Below are positions 1-29,584 of a DNA stretch of 40,323 nucleotides, piece by piece. The DNA is from a virus. Its lineage: Duplodnaviria; Heunggongvirae; Uroviricota; Caudoviricetes. The notes under the pieces are model-generated. The model was not told the origin of the DNA and did no database searches. It was given only the letters and a program-made list of their open reading frames with translations. A program made the position numbers and the translations under genes. Location: the IMG/VR virus record IMGVR_UViG_2695420876_000014. One strand, written 5' to 3'. Position 1 is the first letter of the stretch. Each line of letters opens with the position of its first letter.

Positions 1-1248
1 ATGGCACTGAATATTCCATTCAGAAATGCGTACTATCGTTTTGCATCCAGTTACTCATTTCTCTTTTTTATTTCCTGGTCGCTGTGGTGGTCGTTATACG
101 CTATTTGGCTGAAAGGACATCTAGGGTTGACAGGGACGGAATTAGGTACACTTTATTCGGTCAACCAGTTTACCAGCATTCTATTTATGATGTTCTACGG
201 CATCGTTCAGGATAAACTCGGTCTGAAGAAACCGCTCATCTGGTGTATGAGTTTCATCCTGGTCTTGACCGGACCGTTTATGATTTACGTTTATGAACCG
301 TTACTGCAAAGCAATTTTTCTGTAGGTCTAATTCTGGGGGCGCTATTTTTTGGCTTGGGGTATCTGGCGGGATGCGGTTTGCTTGATAGCTTCACCGAAA
401 AAATGGCGCGAAATTTTCATTTCGAATATGGAACAGCGCGCGCCTGGGGATCTTTTGGCTATGCTATTGGCGCGTTCTTTGCCGGCATATTTTTTAGTAT
501 CAGTCCCCATATCAACTTCTGGTTGGTCTCGCTATTTGGCGCTGTATTTATGATGATCAACATGCGTTTTAAAGATAAGGATCACCAGTGCGTAGCGGCA
601 GATGCGGGAGGGGTAAAAAAAGAGGATTTTATCGCAGTTTTCAAGGATCGAAACTTCTGGGTTTTCGTCATATTTATTGTGGGGACGTGGTCTTTCTATA
701 ACATTTTTGATCAACAACTTTTTCCTGTCTTTTATGCAGGTTTATTCGAATCACACGATGTAGGAACGCGCCTGTATGGTTATCTCAACTCATTCCAGGT
801 GGTACTCGAAGCGCTGTGCATGGCGATTATTCCTTTCTTTGTGAATCGGGTAGGGCCAAAAAATGCATTACTTATCGGAGTTGTGATTATGGCGTTGCGT
901 ATCCTTTCCTGCGCGCTGTTCGTTAACCCCTGGATTATTTCATTAGTGAAGTTGTTACATGCCATTGAGGTTCCACTTTGTGTCATATCCGTCTTCAAAT
1001 ACAGCGTGGCAAACTTTGATAAGCGCCTGTCGTCGACGATCTTTCTGATTGGTTTTCAAATTGCCAGTTCGCTTGGGATTGTGCTGCTTTCAACGCCGAC
1101 TGGGATACTCTTTGACCACGCAGGCTACCAGACAGTTTTCTTCGCAATTTCGGGTATTGTCTGCCTGATGTTGCTATTTGGCATTTTCTTCTTGAGTAAA
1201 AAACGCGAGCAAATAGTTATGGAAACGCCTGTACCTTCAGCAATATAG
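1..1248 (+). CDS. cscB: sucrose:H+ symporter CscB (LacY-family MFS permease)
   Basis: 415-aa ORF with a polytopic hydrophobic profile; N-terminus MALNIPFRNAYYRFASSYSF and overall sequence recognised as the E. coli csc-regulon sucrose permease; first codon is the first base of the window. Confidence 0.93.
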   Translation: MALNIPFRNAYYRFASSYSFLFFISWSLWWSLYAIWLKGHLGLTGTELGTLYSVNQFTSILFMMFYGIVQDKLGLKKPLIWCMSFILVLTGPFMIYVYEPLLQSNFSVGLILGALFFGLGYLAGCGLLDSFTEKMARNFHFEYGTARAWGSFGYAIGAFFAGIFFSISPHINFWLVSLFGAVFMMINMRFKDKDHQCVAADAGGVKKEDFIAVFKDRNFWVFVIFIVGTWSFYNIFDQQLFPVFYAGLFESHDVGTRLYGYLNSFQVVLEALCMAIIPFFVNRVGPKNALLIGVVIMALRILSCALFVNPWIISLVKLLHAIEVPLCVISVFKYSVANFDKRLSSTIFLIGFQIASSLGIVLLSTPTGILFDHAGYQTVFFAISGIVCLMLLFGIFFLSKKREQIVMETPVPSAI

Positions 1249-1308: not shown

Positions 1309-1689
1309 AGTAAAATGCTTAGCCCTGCTAATAATCGCCTAATCCAAACGCCTCATTCATGTTCTGGTACAGTCGCTCAAATGTACTTCAGATGCGCGGT
1401 TCGCTGATTTCCAGGACATTGTCGTCATTCAGTGACCTGTCCCGTGTATCACGGTCCTGCGAATTCATCAAGGAATGCATTGCGGAGTGAAGTATCGAGT
1501 CACGCCATATTTCGCTATCAGGATTCTGTGTGATGGTTACATCGCCCGGCCCAGGGCTGTTTAGTCATCAGCGCTTTCTGACAGTGCTGAGATTTCAACC
1601 TGTTGCAGTAAAAATGAGTAGATATAAGGCAAGTGTGCTGCCAAACCCATCTTTTACGGGGTGAAGGTAGATTTCGTTTGAAGGGTATC

Positions 1690-1704
1690 TGGTGTCCCCT
1701 GCAG
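1690..1704. repeat. prophage attR core, tggtgtcccctgcag, matching the reverse complement of the argW tRNA-Arg 3' end
   Basis: 15-nt string equals the reverse complement of the acceptor-stem/CCA end of argW as I recall it; lies 74 bp from torI at the boundary between host-like and phage-like DNA; an imperfect inverted copy (cagcagggga, 1720-1729) follows. Confidence 0.6.
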
Positions 1705-1777
1705 ACATCTACTTGAGGCAGCAGGGGATTGATTGGAATGGTGTTTTTGAGATATGAGAAATATTTTACCCGCTATT

Positions 1778-1978
1778 TTACCCATTGGCGCGGCTTAAGA
1801 GCTTATTTTTGAATTCACAATGGTCACGATATAACCATCTTGCTCGTCCGTGGATAACTTTGGCTTTAGGCAGGTCGCCGGACTTAATCCGGTCATAGAT
1901 GAAGGTTTTACCGAAGCCAGTATCGGCCATGATGAATTTCAAATCAACCAGTGAATCAGGTTGTAGTTCGTGTTGCAT
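1778..1978 (-). CDS. torI: excisionase / recombination directionality factor TorI (AlpA-like winged helix)
   Basis: 66-aa ORF MQHELQPDSLVDLKFIMADTGFGKTFIYDRIKSGDLPKAKVIHGRARWLYRDHCEFKNKLLSRANG recognised as TorI of the KplE1/CPS-53 prophage; placed next to the att core. Confidence 0.9.
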   Translation of the reverse strand: MQHELQPDSLVDLKFIMADTGFGKTFIYDRIKSGDLPKAKVIHGRARWLYRDHCEFKNKLLSRANG

Positions 1979-1996
1979 GAGTGCTATCTCCGAATA

Positions 1997-2012
1997 GGGA
2001 ATCGAACCTGCA
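1997..2012 (-). other. tRNA T-arm-like fragment (gggaatcgaacctgca), not a complete tRNA
   Basis: 16 nt match the reverse complement of the argW T-stem/loop region (GCAGGTTCGATTCC); the flanks do not complete a cloverleaf or an acceptor stem. Confidence 0.4.
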
Positions 2013-2020
2013 AATCAGGC

Positions 2021-2044
2021 AATAAAAAACCGCCATCAGGCGGC
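2021..2044 (-). terminator. rho-independent terminator on the minus strand, upstream of torI
   Basis: Minus-strand reading gccgcctgatggcgg followed by ttttttatt. Confidence 0.6.
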
Positions 2045-2109
2045 TTGGTGTTCTTTCAGTTCTTCAATTCGAATATTGGTTACATTGTTTTCATATATGA
2101 ATAAATAAA

Positions 2110-2322
2110 TTAGCTTTTTTCGTTGCCTTCGCTTTCTTTATTAATTTTAACAAACTCGTTTTTACCACGCTCTCCAAATGCGTCTTTAGAGTCGTTGTAT
2201 CCGCAATCGCAGCACACATAATCTCCAGACCATCCACGCATTGTTTTTTCTTTTGCAATATTTCCAGAACCGCATTTTGGACAAGACATATCACTACCTC
2301 CAAAGCATGAGTGAGATGACAA
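2110..2322 (-). CDS. small zinc-ribbon protein (CxxC...CxxC)
   Basis: 70-aa ORF with CPKCGSG and CCDCGY motifs; the true start may be the internal MSCPKCGSG (near 2289). Confidence 0.5.
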   Translation of the reverse strand: MSSHSCFGGSDMSCPKCGSGNIAKEKTMRGWSGDYVCCDCGYNDSKDAFGERGKNEFVKINKESEGNEKS

Positions 2323-7472: not shown

Positions 7473-7856
7473 TCATCTCGCCGTCAGTTGTTTGGATTTC
7501 CGGTAGCCTGCCGCGTAAATGGCTACGTTTGGAAGACATACACCAGTTTCTGGTTGCTTATGTCCAAACTCATTCGCGTACACAATGGCCGCTCGCTCCA
7601 GATTGCGTCTGTATTCTTTCTGTTGCCAGATCACGTCCTGTGCCATGAACTTAATTGGCTTAGCGTCTTCTATACGCTCAGGCGTTTCGTGAGTACCTTT
7701 AGCCTGAATCTGCGCTCTGCTTAGAGTAGGGCGGTGTAATACTTCTGAACTTATTGCTTCTTCGCGGGCCAGTACGCCGTTAGCTAATGCCTTTACCTTT
7801 AAACGCTCACGACGACGAGAACGTGAATTGCCTTTGAACTGAGTTCTGCGTGTCAT
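7473..7856 (-). CDS. N-like transcription antiterminator with a P22-type arginine-rich motif
   Basis: 127 aa; N-terminus MTRRTQFKGNSRSRRRERLKVKALANG resembles the RNA-binding ARM of P22/phage-21 N proteins; strong SD (aggagg) before the ATG; matching P22-type boxB hairpins found at both nut positions. Confidence 0.75.
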   Translation of the reverse strand: MTRRTQFKGNSRSRRRERLKVKALANGVLAREEAISSEVLHRPTLSRAQIQAKGTHETPERIEDAKPIKFMAQDVIWQQKEYRRNLERAAIVYANEFGHKQPETGVCLPNVAIYAAGYRKSKQLTAR

Positions 7857-8362: not shown

Positions 8363-8983
8363 TTAATGCTGGGGAGTGATTTTTTTGTTGTCTGTTGGCT
8401 GGGTATTTTGTGGCGGCGCTTGCAAAGTGGAAGGCTGTTGCAAAGGTACGTGGTCTGACTTTAAAGCTGATACCAGCCCGGGAATCGCAACTATTACAGC
8501 GATAATGACACTAAAAATGGCTAATCGTATAGAAATACCCGACTGAACACCACTAATTGCGGTATTAACCCCTGTTATTTGTCCTTGAATTCCTTCGAAT
8601 CTCCCATTAATTGCTTTTATATCGCCAGCAGCGCTATCCATCTTTCCATCGATCTTGGACGATAGAGAGCTTATGGCTGCATTAAGTGATGCAAATTGGA
8701 CATTAACGCTTTCACGAGATAGAGCCATGTCAGCCCTAATGGAAGAAGCAATAGACTCCATCTCTGCTTTATTAGCAGCTAAGCGAGCATCAAGTTCCTC
8801 TCTGCTGATCGTTCCCACTTCTTCCTCCGTTTGTGGCGGTTTTATGTAATTATTTTGCACCTTGGTGGGAGAATTATCAAATTCAGCCTCAAAATCGGAA
8901 CCGCCAACAACCTTCAACCTCCGGCTTTCAGATATGTTGGTGTCTTGCTTTCCATGATTATTTAAATTACTGTCGTCACTCAT
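8363..8983 (-). CDS. tail-anchored coiled-coil membrane protein of unknown function (third gene of the cI operon)
   Basis: 206 aa: polar N-terminus, long Ser/Ala-rich heptad-like middle, one C-terminal TM helix (IRLAIFSVIIAVIVAIPGLVSAL) and a Pro/Gln-rich tail; ATG overlaps the stop of the upstream gene (ATGA). Confidence 0.6.
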   Translation of the reverse strand: MSDDSNLNNHGKQDTNISESRRLKVVGGSDFEAEFDNSPTKVQNNYIKPPQTEEEVGTISREELDARLAANKAEMESIASSIRADMALSRESVNVQFASLNAAISSLSSKIDGKMDSAAGDIKAINGRFEGIQGQITGVNTAISGVQSGISIRLAIFSVIIAVIVAIPGLVSALKSDHVPLQQPSTLQAPPQNTQPTDNKKITPQH

Positions 8984-9468
8984 AATAGCTCTACGGTGAA
9001 AAATGATTCATTTTTATGAAGTTCATTTTTAGGGTCTTCATTATCTTGCAATATCCCTATAACACTATACAGCCCTTTAGCTGGGACCCTAATTTCTTTC
9101 AATGTTACTATTACCTGTCCGCCAACCCCTGTTTCAAAATGGCTATCTTTCGTATCGATGAAAAGTGAAACTGATTCCGAAGAGCCGTCAGGGAATTGAA
9201 TTTCCTCACCTTTTTTTATAATTAGGTGCGCGGGGATTACCATAATACCCAAATTATATCTTGAATTTGGTTTCAACCCGATCATACCAACCCTGAAATC
9301 AATTGATAGCCGCGCAGGAAATTCATTGCATGTAAAATTAAGCGTCGGTTGGTTGGGTTCTTCGCTGCTATCAAATGGGGTTATAAAAGATATTCTTTCT
9401 AAATTAAGTGCCATAAATTCTCCTGCATCGCTGTATGCTCTACGAGCATCTCTGCGATCATCCATCAT
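8980..9468 (-). CDS. hypothetical protein (second gene of the cI operon)
   Basis: 162-aa ORF; a better-supported start is the internal MALNLERISF at 9414 (aggag 8 nt upstream), giving 144 aa; no recognisable domain. Confidence 0.55.
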   Translation of the reverse strand: MMDDRRDARRAYSDAGEFMALNLERISFITPFDSSEEPNQPTLNFTCNEFPARLSIDFRVGMIGLKPNSRYNLGIMVIPAHLIIKKGEEIQFPDGSSESVSLFIDTKDSHFETGVGGQVIVTLKEIRVPAKGLYSVIGILQDNEDPKNELHKNESFFTVELL

Positions 9469-9484
9469 CCAAACGTCTCTTCAC

Positions 9485-9826
9485 TCATCCGAAGAAGCAG
9501 CAATCCGGGTCAGCACGCACAAGCTCAAGCGCATCAGTCAGCGAAAGTTCAGTACTGTACTGATGCCATTTCATATCCTTCCGCATCCAATAGATTTTCC
9601 ATCTATCCAGAGAACGTATGTACTTGATTCTTGCTGATGGCAGGATGTTTGTTTCACCTGGGTTGCCCTGCCACACGGGGCGCTGTTCGCCGATATCTAT
9701 CGTTTGGTCATTGATGCTATAAACAATATCCAGTTCATTGCGGATATGTTCAGGCGGCCTTATGCTTTCAATGAATTGGTGAACTTCTTTTTTGACCGCT
9801 TGATATTCAAGGTCAGTGAACGCCAT
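9485..9826 (-). CDS. hypothetical protein (first gene downstream of cI)
   Basis: 113-aa ORF MAFTDLEYQAVKKEVHQFIESIRPPEH... with a strong SD (gaggagg) 4 nt before the ATG; 60 nt downstream of the cI stop on the same strand. Confidence 0.6.
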   Translation of the reverse strand: MAFTDLEYQAVKKEVHQFIESIRPPEHIRNELDIVYSINDQTIDIGEQRPVWQGNPGETNILPSARIKYIRSLDRWKIYWMRKDMKWHQYSTELSLTDALELVRADPDCCFFG

Positions 9827-9886: not shown

Positions 9887-10591
9887 TCACGAACTTTTCA
9901 GCCACTCCCTTGCCTCGATGTCATCCAGATGGCGAGATTGCTTCAGAATACCAGCTACATACTCCACCTTTGCTACTTGATGATAAGGCAACGTTATAGG
10001 CCTGTGATCCTGGTTAATGCTTGTAAATTGGTATTCTCCATCTCTGTCATAGCCAAGAACCTTAATCATGTTGTGTCCTTCAACGGTTCTGACAAACACC
10101 TCATCACCCGGGAATACTTTGGTGTTAGGCTCAATGAGTACATATTCTCCTGATTTTATTCTGGGCCACATGCTGTCTCCTTTCACACGAAGACCAAAGG
10201 CATCTGGATCATCGCTATAAATTTTGAGCCACCCATCGCGCTCTTCGGTCATCTCGATGGCACCATCAACACCAAGAATTGCCTCACCAACCACGCGCAC
10301 TAACCCTTTTCTTACCTGACCGACAAAAGTTAAAGAATCTGAGCATGATGCAATTGGTGTTACATCATGTACCAAATCAAGCCACCCATTAGGTAACCCA
10401 AGCGCGGCTTCAAATTTTCTTGCTAGTTTATCCCCTATGTTTCGAGTGCTTTTTTCACCGGAGACTTGCGTGAGTTGAGAAGGGCTAACCCCAAGCTTAT
10501 CGGCAAAGCTTGCATTAGTGTTACCCGCGATTTTTTTATGCTCATCTAGCAAAAACGCCAGATTCGATTTGCGAATATCTTTGTTTTCCAT
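9887..10591 (-). CDS. cI: CI-like prophage repressor (N-terminal HTH, C-terminal S24 LexA-type autopeptidase)
   Basis: 234 aa; HTH-like FADKLGVSPSQLTQV and a C-terminal domain with VKGDSMWPRIKSGEYVLIEPN (catalytic Ser, with Lys downstream) typical of RecA-cleavable repressors; divergent from the cro-like gene. Confidence 0.9.
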   Translation of the reverse strand: MENKDIRKSNLAFLLDEHKKIAGNTNASFADKLGVSPSQLTQVSGEKSTRNIGDKLARKFEAALGLPNGWLDLVHDVTPIASCSDSLTFVGQVRKGLVRVVGEAILGVDGAIEMTEERDGWLKIYSDDPDAFGLRVKGDSMWPRIKSGEYVLIEPNTKVFPGDEVFVRTVEGHNMIKVLGYDRDGEYQFTSINQDHRPITLPYHQVAKVEYVAGILKQSRHLDDIEAREWLKSS

Positions 10592-28165: not shown

Positions 28166-29584
28166 ATGCCGATTCAGCAACTTCCGCTTATGAAAGGTGT
28201 CGGCAAAGACTTTCGAAACGCCGACTATATCGACTATCTGCCAGTGAATATGTTGGCAACCCCCAAAGAAATCCTGAACAGCAGCGGATATCTTCGCTCA
28301 TTCCCGGGCATTGCCAAACGCTCTGATGTGAACGGTGTATCGCGCGGCGTCGAGTACAACATGGCGCAGAATGCTGTTTATCGTGTGTGTGGCGGCAAGC
28401 TCTACAAAGGCGAAAGCGAAGTCGGTGACGTCGCCGGAAGTGGTCGTGTATCAATGGCGCATGATCGGACATCACAGGCGGTAGGTGTTAATGGTCAACT
28501 GGTCGAGTATCGCTATGATGGCACGGTTAAAACAGTCTCAAACTGGCCTGCGGACAGCGGATTCACGCAGTATGAGTTAGGTTCGGTCCGTGACATTACG
28601 CGCTTACGTGGGCGTTATGCGTGGTCAAAAGACGGAACTGATTCATGGTTTATCACTGACCTTGAAGACGAATCGCATCCTGACCGTTACAGCGCACAAT
28701 ATCGCGCAGAATCGCAGCCGGACGGCATCATCGGTATCGGCACATGGCGAGACTTCATAGTCTGCTTTGGTTCGTCGACGATTGAATATTTCTCCCTGAC
28801 TGGTGCAACCACAGTTGGTGCTGCTTTGTATGTCGCACAGCCATCACTGATGGTGCAAAAAGGCATTGCCGGGACTTACTGCAAAACGCCGTTTGCTGAC
28901 TCGTATGCGTTCATCAGCAATCCGGCAACAGGTGCGCCGTCTGTATATATCATCGGCTCCGGTCAGGTATCACCAATCGCCAGCGCGAGCATTGAGAAAA
29001 TCCTCCGCTCCTACACTGCTGATGAACTGGCTGATGGCGTGATGGAGTCTCTGAGATTTGATGCGCATGAGTTGCTGATTATCCATCTTCCGCGCCACGT
29101 CCTCGTGTACGACGCATCTTCAAGCGCCAATGGTCCGCAATGGTGTGTGTTGAAAACTGGCTTGTATGACGATGTGTACCGCGCTATCGACTTCATTTAC
29201 GAAGGCAATCAGATAACGTGCGGCGATAAGCTGGAGTCCATGACCGGGAAATTGCAATTCGACATCAGCAGCCAGTACGACAAGCAACAGGAACATCTGC
29301 TGTTTACTCCTCTGTTCAAAGCGGATAACGCCAGAGTGTTCGACCTTGAAGTTGAATCGTCAACTGGAGTTGCGCAGTACGCTGACCGCCTTTTTCTCTC
29401 TGCAACCACTGACGGCATCAATTACGGGCGTGAGCAGATGATTGAGCAGAATGAACCGTTCGTTTACGACAAACGCGTTTTGTGGAAGCGTGTCGGGCGA
29501 ATAAGGAAAAATGTCGGCTTCAAATTGCGCGTTATCACTAAGTCACCTGTCACTCTCTCAGGCTGCCAGATAAGGATTGAGTAA
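28166..29584 (+). CDS. tail hub protein (P22 gp10-like)
   Basis: 472 aa, the same length as P22 gp10, in the corresponding position. Confidence 0.65.

What the first reader, a model, noticed from the sequence alone, without database searches (positions are those of the whole stretch)
1997..2044. tRNA T-arm-like fragment and terminator immediately upstream of torI
A 16-nt stretch (gggaatcgaacctgca) matches the reverse complement of the argW T-arm region but lacks an acceptor end, so it is a second tRNA-derived fragment ~300 bp inside the prophage from attR. It is followed, in the direction of leftward transcription, by a strong terminator (2021-2044) that would insulate torI from upstream early transcription. 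The fragment could be the scar of an older integration or a secondary att half-site, making torI a cassette bracketed by tRNA-derived sequences.
Basis: seen in the sequence. Interest (0 to 1): 0.4.

Follow-up and report, generated by a model that had tools for sequence, protein, structure and literature searches.

The report
Conserved T-loop-like box before torI
The tRNA-like 16-mer is real, but it is not an integration scar: it is a short box kept unchanged in front of the prophage's excision-factor gene torI, just after a well-known lambda-type terminator, and what the box does is not yet known.

Summary
Both observations hold. GGGAATCGAACCTGCA is at 1997-2012; exact identity to argW is 1998-2013. 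A -13 kcal/mol hairpin plus U-run (2046-2019, minus strand) lies just upstream of torI. No tRNA is detected by ARAGORN or Rfam.

The window is an HK620/Sf6-like lambdoid prophage at argW. The terminator is the lambda/P22 t'I element. It is 100% identical to P22 and is replaced by at least eight other hairpins at the same place in relatives. With an N-type antiterminator gene in the window, it most likely restricts torI expression to antiterminated pL transcripts.

The T-arm-like piece is the E. coli form of a box, (C)AGGTTCGATTyCC. It sits 4-7 nt before the torI Shine-Dalgarno in 15 of 16 lineages (13 nt in Serratia) and is tandemly duplicated in some. It is as conserved as second codon positions (0.91, against 0.31 for the 20 nt upstream), so it is under selection rather than decaying.

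Its likeness to argW is mostly generic: tRNA-Lys matches 14/16. attP also keeps its own degenerate T-loop beside the core, so the scar or split-tRNA reading is not supported.

The box's mechanism is unresolved. My best guess is an operator-like site containing the TorI pentamer GTTCG. HK620's annotated cII site and pI promoter are not conserved.

The parts
1690..1704 (-). attR core, the duplicated 3' end of argW (CTGCAGGGGACACCA on the minus strand)
   Evidence: Single exact match in the window. Identical to the argW 3' end. Annotated as attP core in HK620 and Sf6 and as pawZ in K-12.
1762..1784 (.). Two arm-type integrase repeats (TATTTTACCCGCTATTTTACCCA) overlapping the torI stop
   Evidence: Corresponds to the HK620 repeat_region 1441-1463 (offset +321).
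1778..1978 (-). torI, the recombination directionality factor (66 aa)
   Evidence: ORF found. The RefSeq product name is TorI in near-identical loci. 98.5% identical DNA in HK620 hkaC.
1986..1991 (-). torI Shine-Dalgarno GGAGAT, 7 nt before the ATG
   Evidence: Read from the sequence. Conserved as GGAG in all lineages.
1998..2010 (-). Conserved leader box CAGGTTCGATTCC.
   Evidence: Lies 4-7 nt before the SD in 15 of 16 lineage representatives. The core 10 nt are 0.91 identical pairwise. Tandem copies occur in L007, L129, L130, L133 and L126.
2010..2022 (-). TTGCCTGATTTGC, annotated in HK620 as a cII binding site within a putative pI promoter (which maps to window 1985-2023)
   Evidence: HK620 and Sf6 annotation. 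The spacing is N5, not lambda's N6. It occurs at chance frequency. Neither half-site is conserved.
2019..2046 (-). Intrinsic terminator of lambda t'I type: hairpin 2046-2027, U-run down to about 2019
   Evidence: -13 kcal/mol. 100% identical to P22 over 2020-2110 and annotated there as terminator t'I. Same sequence in lambda.
2110..2289 (-). eaG-like zinc-ribbon gene, the last gene before the terminator
   Evidence: Product called 'Eag protein' in a near-identical locus. Annotated as P22 eaG. Only weak zinc-ribbon Pfam hits.
7473..7856 (-). N-type antiterminator gene. It is context: the factor expected to carry pL transcription through the terminator.
   Evidence: Pfam PF25694 N_peptide, 56.3 bits against a cut-off of 27.9.

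Best explanation
Positions 1985-2046 are the leader of the excision-factor gene torI, at the far end of the leftward early (pL) operon of an HK620/Sf6-like prophage integrated at argW. Read in the direction of transcription, the leader has three parts.

(a) A lambda t'I-type intrinsic terminator. It stops ordinary transcripts coming from the early genes. torI should therefore be transcribed mainly by N-antiterminated polymerases after induction. This step is inferred from lambda and P22 biology and from the N gene in the window.

(b) A 13-nt box, CAGGTTCGATTCC, anchored a few bases before the ribosome-binding site. It is a selected cis-acting element of the torI leader, not a decaying tRNA fragment. 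Its likeness to the argW T-arm is largely likeness to any T-arm.

(c) The torI SD and start codon.

For the box itself I commit, with low confidence (about 0.3), to an operator-like DNA site for the module's own DNA-binding protein. Its best-conserved bases are GTTCG, the pentamer whose mutation abolishes TorI action at attL. Bound there, TorI could feed back on the still uncharacterised promoter activity in this leader. An RNA-level role, as part of the translation-initiation region that partly pairs with the SD, is nearly as likely (about 0.25). The confidence of 0.7 applies to (a), to the claim that the box is a selected leader element and not a scar, and to (c). It does not apply to the operator mechanism.
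For: Terminator:
- Hairpin plus U-run on the minus strand.
- 100% identity to the P22 segment annotated as terminator t'I and to lambda.
- In relatives at least eight unrelated G+C-rich hairpins of -10.7 to -13.5 kcal/mol, each followed by a U-run, occupy the same place before the gene.
- An N-type antiterminator gene is present in the window.

Box:
- Found upstream of torI homologues from E. coli, Serratia, Citrobacter, Pantoea, Edwardsiella and Erwinia phages, with unrelated flanks.
- In the alignment of 16 lineage representatives, G, T, T, G, T and C are invariant and C, C, A and T nearly so.
- Pairwise identity is 0.91 for the core. It is 0.31 for the 20 nt upstream and 0.65 for synonymous third positions of torI.
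- The distance to the SD is 4-7 nt in 15 of 16 lineages, while the distance to the terminator varies.
- Among the first 120 viral contigs carrying box+GGAG, the only ORF-linked cases are torI-family genes (27 plus 2). The rest are tRNA genes or have no linked gene.

Operator idea:
- The TorI sites on attL are GTTCG, GATCG and GTCCG, and changing them to CAAGC abolishes TorI repression (PMC2951348).
- The same pentamers are conserved in the P' arms of relatives.
- The box occurs as a direct tandem repeat in two independent lineages.
- The torI promoter is described as 'non-characterized' (PMC2951348).
Against: No sigma-70-like promoter is detected in the leader, so there is no shown target for an operator. 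A weight matrix built from 35 P'-arm TorI sites scores the box at -1.7, against 9-19 for real sites. The A that follows GTTCG in the box is never seen in those sites. The tandem copies are 16 and 13 bp apart, not one helical turn. The same leader also serves a divergent excision-factor family. Several functional relatives lack the box altogether: Klebsiella phage Chronis, Erwinia phage vB_EhrS_49 and Dryocola L017. The box is therefore dispensable. Termination efficiency and read-through by N were not measured.
Confidence: 0.7

Rival explanations
1. RNA-level element. In the mRNA, the 3' half of the box (AUUyCC, or UUCGA) pairs with the torI SD (GGAGAU). This damps translation of leaky read-through transcripts.
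For: The box is anchored to the SD rather than to the terminator. In most lineages the predicted partners of the SD are box bases, with P(SD paired) of 0.8-1.0. In the lineages with the TTTCC variant, the 6-bp helix AUUUCC/GGAGAU forms with P = 1.0, reached by about 1% of shuffles. The E. coli leader folds so that both the SD and the AUG are paired.
Against: In most lineages SD pairing is no higher than with a shuffled upstream sequence (fraction of shuffles at least as high: 0.2-0.65). In the Edwardsiella-type lineage the box folds on itself and leaves the SD free (P = 0.17-0.24). No common structure exists across lineages. The most conserved half, GGUUCG, is not explained.
Confidence: 0.25
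2. First reader's reading. The box is a tRNA-derived scar of an older integration, or a secondary att (attB-like) half-site, so that torI is a cassette bracketed by argW-derived sequence.
For: There are 16 nt of exact identity to argW. In argW this stretch abuts the att core with a 1-nt overlap, and it has the same orientation in the window. Homology between lineages often breaks exactly at the 5' edge of the box. All lineages carrying the box use the argW core.
Against: tRNA-Lys matches 14/16 and 12/13. No lineage shows any longer tRNA similarity, and Rfam and ARAGORN find nothing. attP keeps its own degenerate T-loop next to the core, which argues against a split. The box is far too conserved for an inert scar. 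The crossover sequence does not follow it. Relatives without the box use the same core.
Confidence: 0.1
3. Database annotation (HK620, Sf6). The stretch 1985-2023 is a cII-activated pI promoter like lambda's, the box is merely its spacer, and TTGCCTGATTTGC is the cII site.
For: Annotated in this way in AF335538 and AF547987. In lambda the same terminator is followed directly by TTGC-N6-TTGC, then the SD and xis.
Against: The spacing here is N5, not N6. TTGC-N5-TTGC occurs 4 times in the window against 3.8 expected. The second TTGC is TTCC, TTAC or TGAC in other lineages, and the first is TTAC in K-12 and many other E. coli. No conserved -10 element exists, because the bases between the box and the SD vary freely. 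No promoter was found by the scan. The conserved part is the supposed spacer, which is the opposite of what a promoter predicts.
Confidence: 0.1
4. The box is coding. It is either a short upstream ORF (..QVRFPxRR*) that ends 5-6 nt before the torI ATG and couples translation, or the conserved C-terminal remnant of an ancestral upstream gene.
For: In the frame CAG GTT CGA TTC CCN, a stop codon (TAG, TAA or TGA) lies 5-6 nt before the ATG in about 60 of 70 distinct sequences. Many substitutions are synonymous only in this frame: CGA>AGA three times independently, CGA>CGG, TTC>TTT, CAG>CAA, and CCT/CCA/CCG.
Against: There is no conserved start codon. The Edwardsiella-type lineage has TGA immediately before CAG, and L120, L126, L127 and L129 have no start at all. 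Where a start exists it is a TTG preceded by a U-run and without an SD. Non-synonymous and nonsense variants also occur. The Erwinia-type lineage has no stop in this frame.
Confidence: 0.08

Closest known systems
Lambda t'I terminator and the xis leader (also P22 t'I downstream of eaG)
   Same: The terminator sequence is the same element: AAGCCGCCTGATGGCGGTTTTTT, 100% identical to P22 over window 2020-2110 and to lambda. It holds the same position at the end of the leftward early operon, directly before the excision-factor gene.
   Different: In lambda the terminator is followed at once by TTGC-N6-TTGC (the cII site of pI), then the SD and xis. Here 18 extra bases carrying the box lie between, and the TTGC spacing is N5. 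In P22 the terminator is followed by eaC, not by an excision-factor gene.
KplE1 / HK620 / Sf6 recombination module (torI, attP, intS at argW; Panis et al.)
   Same: Same torI (identical protein), same 15-16-nt core and same arm-type repeats. The leader is 97-98% identical.
   Different: The published work maps TorI, IntS and IHF sites on attL and attR and calls the torI promoter 'non-characterized' (PMC2951348). None of the papers or database records I could read mentions the box. In K-12 the terminator stem has decayed to -2.9 kcal/mol.
TorI binding sites I1-I5 on attL
   Same: They share the pentamer GTTCG on the same strand. Site I4 (TGGTTCGC) also has a G before the pentamer.
   Different: The P'-arm sites follow (C/T)AGTTCG(C/T) and come in arrays spaced 10 or 20 bp. 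The box has GGTTCGA, is usually single, and scores below zero on the site matrix.
tRNA T-arm (argW tRNA-Arg(CCU); generic GGTTCGAnTCC)
   Same: 16 of 16 bases match the argW 5' T-stem strand, the loop and two further bases, in the sense orientation of the torI mRNA.
   Different: There is no 3' stem strand, no acceptor and no other tRNA part. The cloverleaf models find nothing. tRNA-Lys matches nearly as well.
Boundary sequences (bsq) of lambdoid phage mosaics (Clark 2001; Casjens 2004; from the Sf6 annotation)
   Same: Sf6 bsq2 covers torI plus this leader. Homology between phages breaks within 2016-2028 or at the 5' edge of the box. The same leader is joined to a different excision-factor gene in L260 and L320.
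   Different: A boundary sequence is a descriptive label for a module joint. It does not explain why 10-13 bases stay invariant while the gene next to them diverges by 15-25%.

Membership tests
tRNA gene or tRNA pseudogene fragment | Cloverleaf detectable by tRNA models | tested here: not met
   ARAGORN finds 0 genes in the window and none at this place in 23 related loci. Rfam finds no tRNA hit at E<=10 in the window or in 10 related loci.
tRNA gene or tRNA pseudogene fragment | Similarity to argW that goes beyond the generic T-arm | tested here: not met
   Identity is limited to 16 nt (1998-2013). tRNA-Lys(UUU) matches 14/16, and 12/13 of the conserved box.
tRNA gene or tRNA pseudogene fragment | T-stem complementarity (a 3' strand CCTGC after the loop) | tested here: not met
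   The window has CCCTA after the loop, which gives only 2 pairs. A hairpin exists only in some lineages (L015, L021 group).
Intrinsic (Rho-independent) terminator, lambda t'I type | G+C-rich hairpin followed directly by a U-run on the transcribed strand | tested here: met
   8-bp stem with 5 G-C pairs, a 4-nt loop and UUUUUUAUU. Energy -13.0 kcal/mol, z = -3.3.
Intrinsic (Rho-independent) terminator, lambda t'I type | Sequence identity with the lambda/P22 element | tested here: met
   100% identity to P22 over 91 nt, annotated there as terminator t'I. Same sequence in lambda.
Intrinsic (Rho-independent) terminator, lambda t'I type | Actual termination, and read-through by N | not testable with these tools
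   Support is indirect only: different hairpins at the same site in relatives and an N-type gene in the window.
cII-activated promoter (lambda pI / pRE type) | TTGC-N6-TTGC straddling the -35 region | tested here: not met
   The spacing is N5 (2010-2022). This pattern occurs at chance frequency. Lambda has N6.
cII-activated promoter (lambda pI / pRE type) | Conservation of the activator site and of the -10 element among relatives | tested here: not met
   Both half-sites vary, and the bases between the box and the SD vary freely.
att site (core or half-site) of the IntS system | Crossover or identity segment TGCAGGGGACACCA adjacent to the T-loop part | tested here: not met
   The box is followed by CTATTC, TGAAAA, CTGTCC and similar in different lineages. 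The only core in the window is at 1690-1704.
att site (core or half-site) of the IntS system | Binding by IntS | not testable with these tools
   attP of relatives keeps TTCGAT 3 nt from the core.
TorI (excision-factor) operator | Pentamer GTTCG / GATCG / GTCCG | tested here: met
   GTTCG lies in the box and is its best-conserved part.
TorI (excision-factor) operator | Match to the extended site and helical phasing of repeats | tested here: not met
   Matrix score is -1.7, against 9-19 for P'-arm sites. Tandem copies are spaced 16 and 13 bp.
SD-sequestering leader hairpin | SD pairing above background, with a structure shared across lineages | tested here: inconclusive
   SD pairing is high, but it exceeds shuffled controls only in the TTTCC lineages and is absent in the Edwardsiella-type lineage.
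Upstream ORF / leader peptide | Conserved start codon, frame and stop | tested here: not met
   The stop is conserved in most lineages. The start is absent or not conserved in several.

The most novel reading that the evidence does not exclude
The box is a deliberate mimic of the attB arm, that is, of the argW T-loop DNA that the integrase or the excision factor sees at the bacterial site. By binding IntS or TorI in front of torI, it couples synthesis of the excision factor to the amount of free recombination protein. This would be a decoy half-site acting as a regulatory switch for prophage excision, shared by at least two excision-factor families that target argW.
Probability: 0.12. Interest if true: 0.6.

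Novelty: new member of a known kind. Interest (0 to 1): 0.33.

Why it matters
In this family of prophages the integrase is made constantly at a low level, and excision is thought to depend only on expression of TorI (PMC2951348). Yet the torI promoter and leader are uncharacterised. A 13-nt box as conserved as the protein's own second codon positions, placed between a conserved terminator and the ribosome-binding site, is the obvious candidate for the missing control element. It can be tested with simple mutations and gel shifts. The analysis also corrects two database readings, because the HK620/Sf6 'cII site' and pI promoter are not supported by comparison. It further shows that a tRNA-like string next to an att site need not be an integration scar.

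Tried and rejected
1. Split-tRNA idea. In argW the 16-mer abuts the att core, which suggested that a 30-nt argW 3' fragment had been split by insertion of torI. I rejected this because attP of relatives has its own TTCGAT 3 nt from the core, and no lineage shows further tRNA similarity.
2. Tracking of the host T-stem by the phage box (the Edwardsiella-type GACAGG..CCTGTC hairpin). The att core there implies a GCAGG/CCTGC host stem, so there is no tracking.
3. TorI site matrix. The box scores poorly. I kept the operator idea only because of the pentamer.
4. IntS arm-type site. Those are GGGTAAAA-type repeats, unlike the box.
5. SD sequestration. It is not distinguishable from shuffled leaders in most lineages.
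6. Upstream ORF. There is an attractive synonymous-substitution pattern but no conserved start.
7. Sigma-70 promoter in the leader. None was found by the scan or by eye in relatives.
8. cII site. See the rival explanations.
9. Rfam matches in the area (STnc130, isrK, Phe leader) are far below their gathering scores. They reflect the terminator only.
10. Literature. The papers on the torI promoter, on Rho control (PNAS 2013), on TorI (PNAS 2004) and on the recombination module (JBC 2007) are not held in the library. What I say about Rho control of torI comes from memory only.

Full report
**Setting**

The window is a mosaic lambdoid, P22-like prophage of the HK620/Sf6 type inserted at argW.
- The left flank is the csc sucrose locus (cscB, 1-1248).
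- The attR core TGGTGTCCCCTGCAG is at 1690-1704.
- torI (1978-1778, minus strand) is the last gene of the leftward early operon.
- The repressor gene is at 9887-10591, and an N-type antiterminator gene at 7473-7856 (Pfam PF25694, 56 bits).
- The integrase gene runs to the right end of the window (39172-40323), so attL and argW lie just outside.
- DNA 1700-2110 is 98.5% identical to HK620 and 98.4% identical to Sf6.

**The observation**

The 16-mer is present once, at 1997-2012, with 0.02 expected even allowing two mismatches. I took argW from an E. coli genome with an empty site. Against it, the exact identity is 1998-2013, which is the reverse complement of TTGCAGGTTCGATTCC. That stretch covers two bases of the variable region, the 5' strand of the T-stem, the T-loop and two bases of the 3' strand. 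It does not extend either way.

No tRNA is found by ARAGORN or by Rfam at E<=10. The terminator is an 8-bp hairpin (2046-2027) followed by UUUUUUAUU on the minus strand. Its energy is -13.0 kcal/mol and z = -3.3. On the plus strand there is no U-run. For leftward transcription the order is terminator, 16-mer, SD (1991-1986), ATG (1978). The 16-mer therefore lies inside the torI leader.

**What the databases already say**

- In P22 (L06296) the identical sequence is annotated as terminator t'I, 'identical to 29106..29165 in bacteriophage lambda'. I confirmed this in the lambda sequence.
- In HK620 the stretch that maps to window 1985-2023 is annotated as a 'phage integration' promoter, with a cII site that maps to 2010-2022.
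- Sf6 calls it 'pI; possible integrase expression promoter' and places torI plus the leader in boundary sequence bsq2.
- In K-12, nothing is annotated between ypdJ and torI.

Homology searches show a mosaic joint here. K-12 KplE1 homology stops at 2028, and the P22 eaG-terminator segment starts at 2020.

**Comparison with relatives**

I fetched loci encoding TorI homologues from 21 species-representative genomes and about 190 viral contigs. They gave 88 distinct upstream regions. Three points stand out.

1. A terminator directly before the gene is a recurring feature. At least eight unrelated hairpins occur there: CCGCC/GGCGG, GCCGC/GCGGC, CCCGGC/GCCGGG, GCCCTC/GAGGGC, GCCCGC/GCGGGC and others. 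Their energies are -10.7 to -13.5 kcal/mol, and each is followed by a U-run. In K-12 the stem has decayed to -2.9 kcal/mol.

2. The T-arm-like piece is the E. coli version of a box, (C)AGGTTCGATT(C/T)CC. It is present in E. coli, Serratia, Citrobacter, Pantoea, Edwardsiella and Erwinia-phage lineages, with unrelated sequence on its 5' side. It lies 4-7 nt before the SD in 15 of 16 lineage representatives and 13 nt before it in Serratia. It is tandemly duplicated in the Erwinia-phage lineage (period 16) and in L126 (period 13).

3. Its conservation is that of a selected element:

| Region | Mean pairwise identity |
|---|---|
| Box, 10-nt core | 0.91 |
| Box, 13 nt | 0.88 |
| 20 nt upstream of the box | 0.31 |
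| 4 nt downstream of the box | 0.47 |
| torI second codon positions | 0.905 |
| torI third positions of invariant residues | 0.65 |

Among the first 120 viral contigs holding box+GGAG, the matches are 41 tRNA genes, 27 torI-like genes and 56 others. Two of the 'others' (L260, L320) are a divergent excision-factor gene with the same leader and the same argW core. The rest are missed tRNA ends or have no linked gene.

**Why it is not a scar or an att half-site**

- The likeness to argW is mostly likeness to any T-arm. tRNA-Lys(UUU) matches 14/16 of the 16-mer and 12/13 of the box.
- I noticed that in argW the 16-mer abuts the att core and has the same orientation, which suggested a tRNA 3' end split by torI. 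However, attP of relatives reads (A/T)TTCGATGTATGCAGGGGACACCA. That is a degenerate T-loop already sitting 3 nt from the core. The box is therefore a second, separate copy, not the missing half.
- No lineage shows any longer tRNA similarity.
- The crossover sequence never follows the box.
- Relatives without the box use the same core.

**Why the annotated cII site and pI promoter are doubtful**

Lambda has TTGC-N6-TTGC immediately after the same terminator. The window has N5, a pattern that occurs at chance frequency (4 found against 3.8 expected). Both half-sites change in relatives and in many E. coli, where they read TTAC, TTCC or TGAC. The bases where a -10 element would lie vary freely. 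The only conserved part is the supposed spacer. The promoter scan finds nothing in the leader.

**Mechanism of the terminator**

This part is inferred. As in lambda and P22, transcripts from pL that are not modified by N should stop at 2019-2027, so the lysogen makes no TorI. After induction, N-modified polymerase reads through into torI. The N gene is present, the terminator is the lambda element, and its position is conserved through replacement by other hairpins. Nothing was measured.

**Mechanism of the box**

I tested four ideas.

(a) TorI operator. The published TorI sites on attL are GTTCG, GATCG and GTCCG, and changing them to CAAGC abolishes repression of the integrase promoter (PMC2951348). 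These pentamers are conserved in the P' arms of relatives as (C/T)AGTTCG(C/T). GTTCG is also the best-conserved part of the box. Against this, a matrix built from 35 such sites scores the box at -1.7 (real sites score 9-19), and it ranks 1314 of 80,616 positions in the window. The tandem copies are also not spaced by a helical turn.

(b) SD sequestration in the mRNA. Box bases are the predicted partners of the SD in most lineages (P = 0.8-1.0), and the TTTCC variant gives a perfect AUUUCC/GGAGAU helix. But shuffled leaders pair nearly as well, and one lineage leaves the SD free.

(c) A short upstream ORF. The frame CAG GTT CGA TTC CCN gives ..QVRFPxRR*, with a stop 5-6 nt before the ATG in most sequences. 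Many substitutions are synonymous only in that frame. However, several lineages have no start codon at all.

(d) cII promoter, as discussed above.

None of these is established. I rank the operator-like DNA site slightly first (about 0.3) and the RNA-level role second (about 0.25). What is well supported is that the box is a selected part of the torI leader, tied to the start of the gene.

**Comparison with what is known, and novelty**

The terminator is already known. The recombination module (torI, attP, intS at argW) is well studied, but its authors call the torI promoter 'non-characterized' and conclude that excision control rests on expression of the excision factor. I found no mention of the box in the papers and database records available to me. 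Several key papers could not be read, so prior description cannot be excluded. I file it as a new member of a known kind: a conserved cis-acting box in a phage regulatory leader. Interest is modest.

Noticed in passing
L001 1790-1930 / L339 1595-1810 (K-12 KplE1): In K-12 the terminator stem before torI has decayed (-2.9 kcal/mol). The DNA upstream (ypdJ) reads as the N-terminal helix-turn-helix part of a second excisionase (..LTLDEACQFLKIS) cut off at the mosaic joint. Loss of the intrinsic terminator may be why Rho matters for torI silencing in K-12; that Rho point is from memory of Menouni 2013, which I could not read.
   Followed up: partly
L260 and L320 (viral contigs): The same leader (terminator, box, SD) precedes a divergent excision-factor gene (MRELRDDSLIDMKF..). 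Its arm-type repeats are different (GGGCATA), but it uses the same argW core. The recombination joint is at the ATG, so the leader behaves as a mosaic unit of its own.
   Followed up: partly
window 1694-1730, and attP of L007, L015, L016, L127 and others: attP/attR carries an inverted repeat TCCCCTGC..(18 nt)..GCAGGGGA. In relatives there is also a degenerate T-loop (TTCGAT) 3 nt from the core, so homology of attP to argW extends to about 25 nt, beyond the 15-16-nt identity block.
   Followed up: partly
L007 (Erwinia phage Midgardsormr38) upstream of the excisionase; also L129, L130, L133, L126: The box is tandemly duplicated: CAGGTTCGATTCCCGTCAGGTTCGATTCCC with period 16, and period 13 in L126.
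   Followed up: partly
L019, L030, L131, L196, L141, L142, L168, L205, downstream of the att core: Other integrative elements sit in tandem at argW right after attR. Their integrase-proximal arms carry (G/A)GTTCGAT(G/T/A/C) next to repeated arm-type sites, just before the integrase start.
   Followed up: no
window 1654-1785 (-): A 43-aa ORF spans the attR core (HK620 hkaB / Sf6 gene 17). In the prophage it is a phage-host hybrid, so it is unlikely to be a real gene.
   Followed up: no
window 8363-9826 (-): Three ORFs (206, 162 and 113 aa) lie between the N-type gene and the repressor gene, where lambdoid phages often carry accessory (moron or exclusion) genes. They were not examined.
   Followed up: no
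window 1-1248 and L002 1-1649: The prophage's left neighbour is the csc sucrose-utilisation locus (a cscB-like MFS transporter, and a kinase upstream) rather than dsdC as in K-12. This marks a non-K-12 chromosomal background at argW.
   Followed up: no
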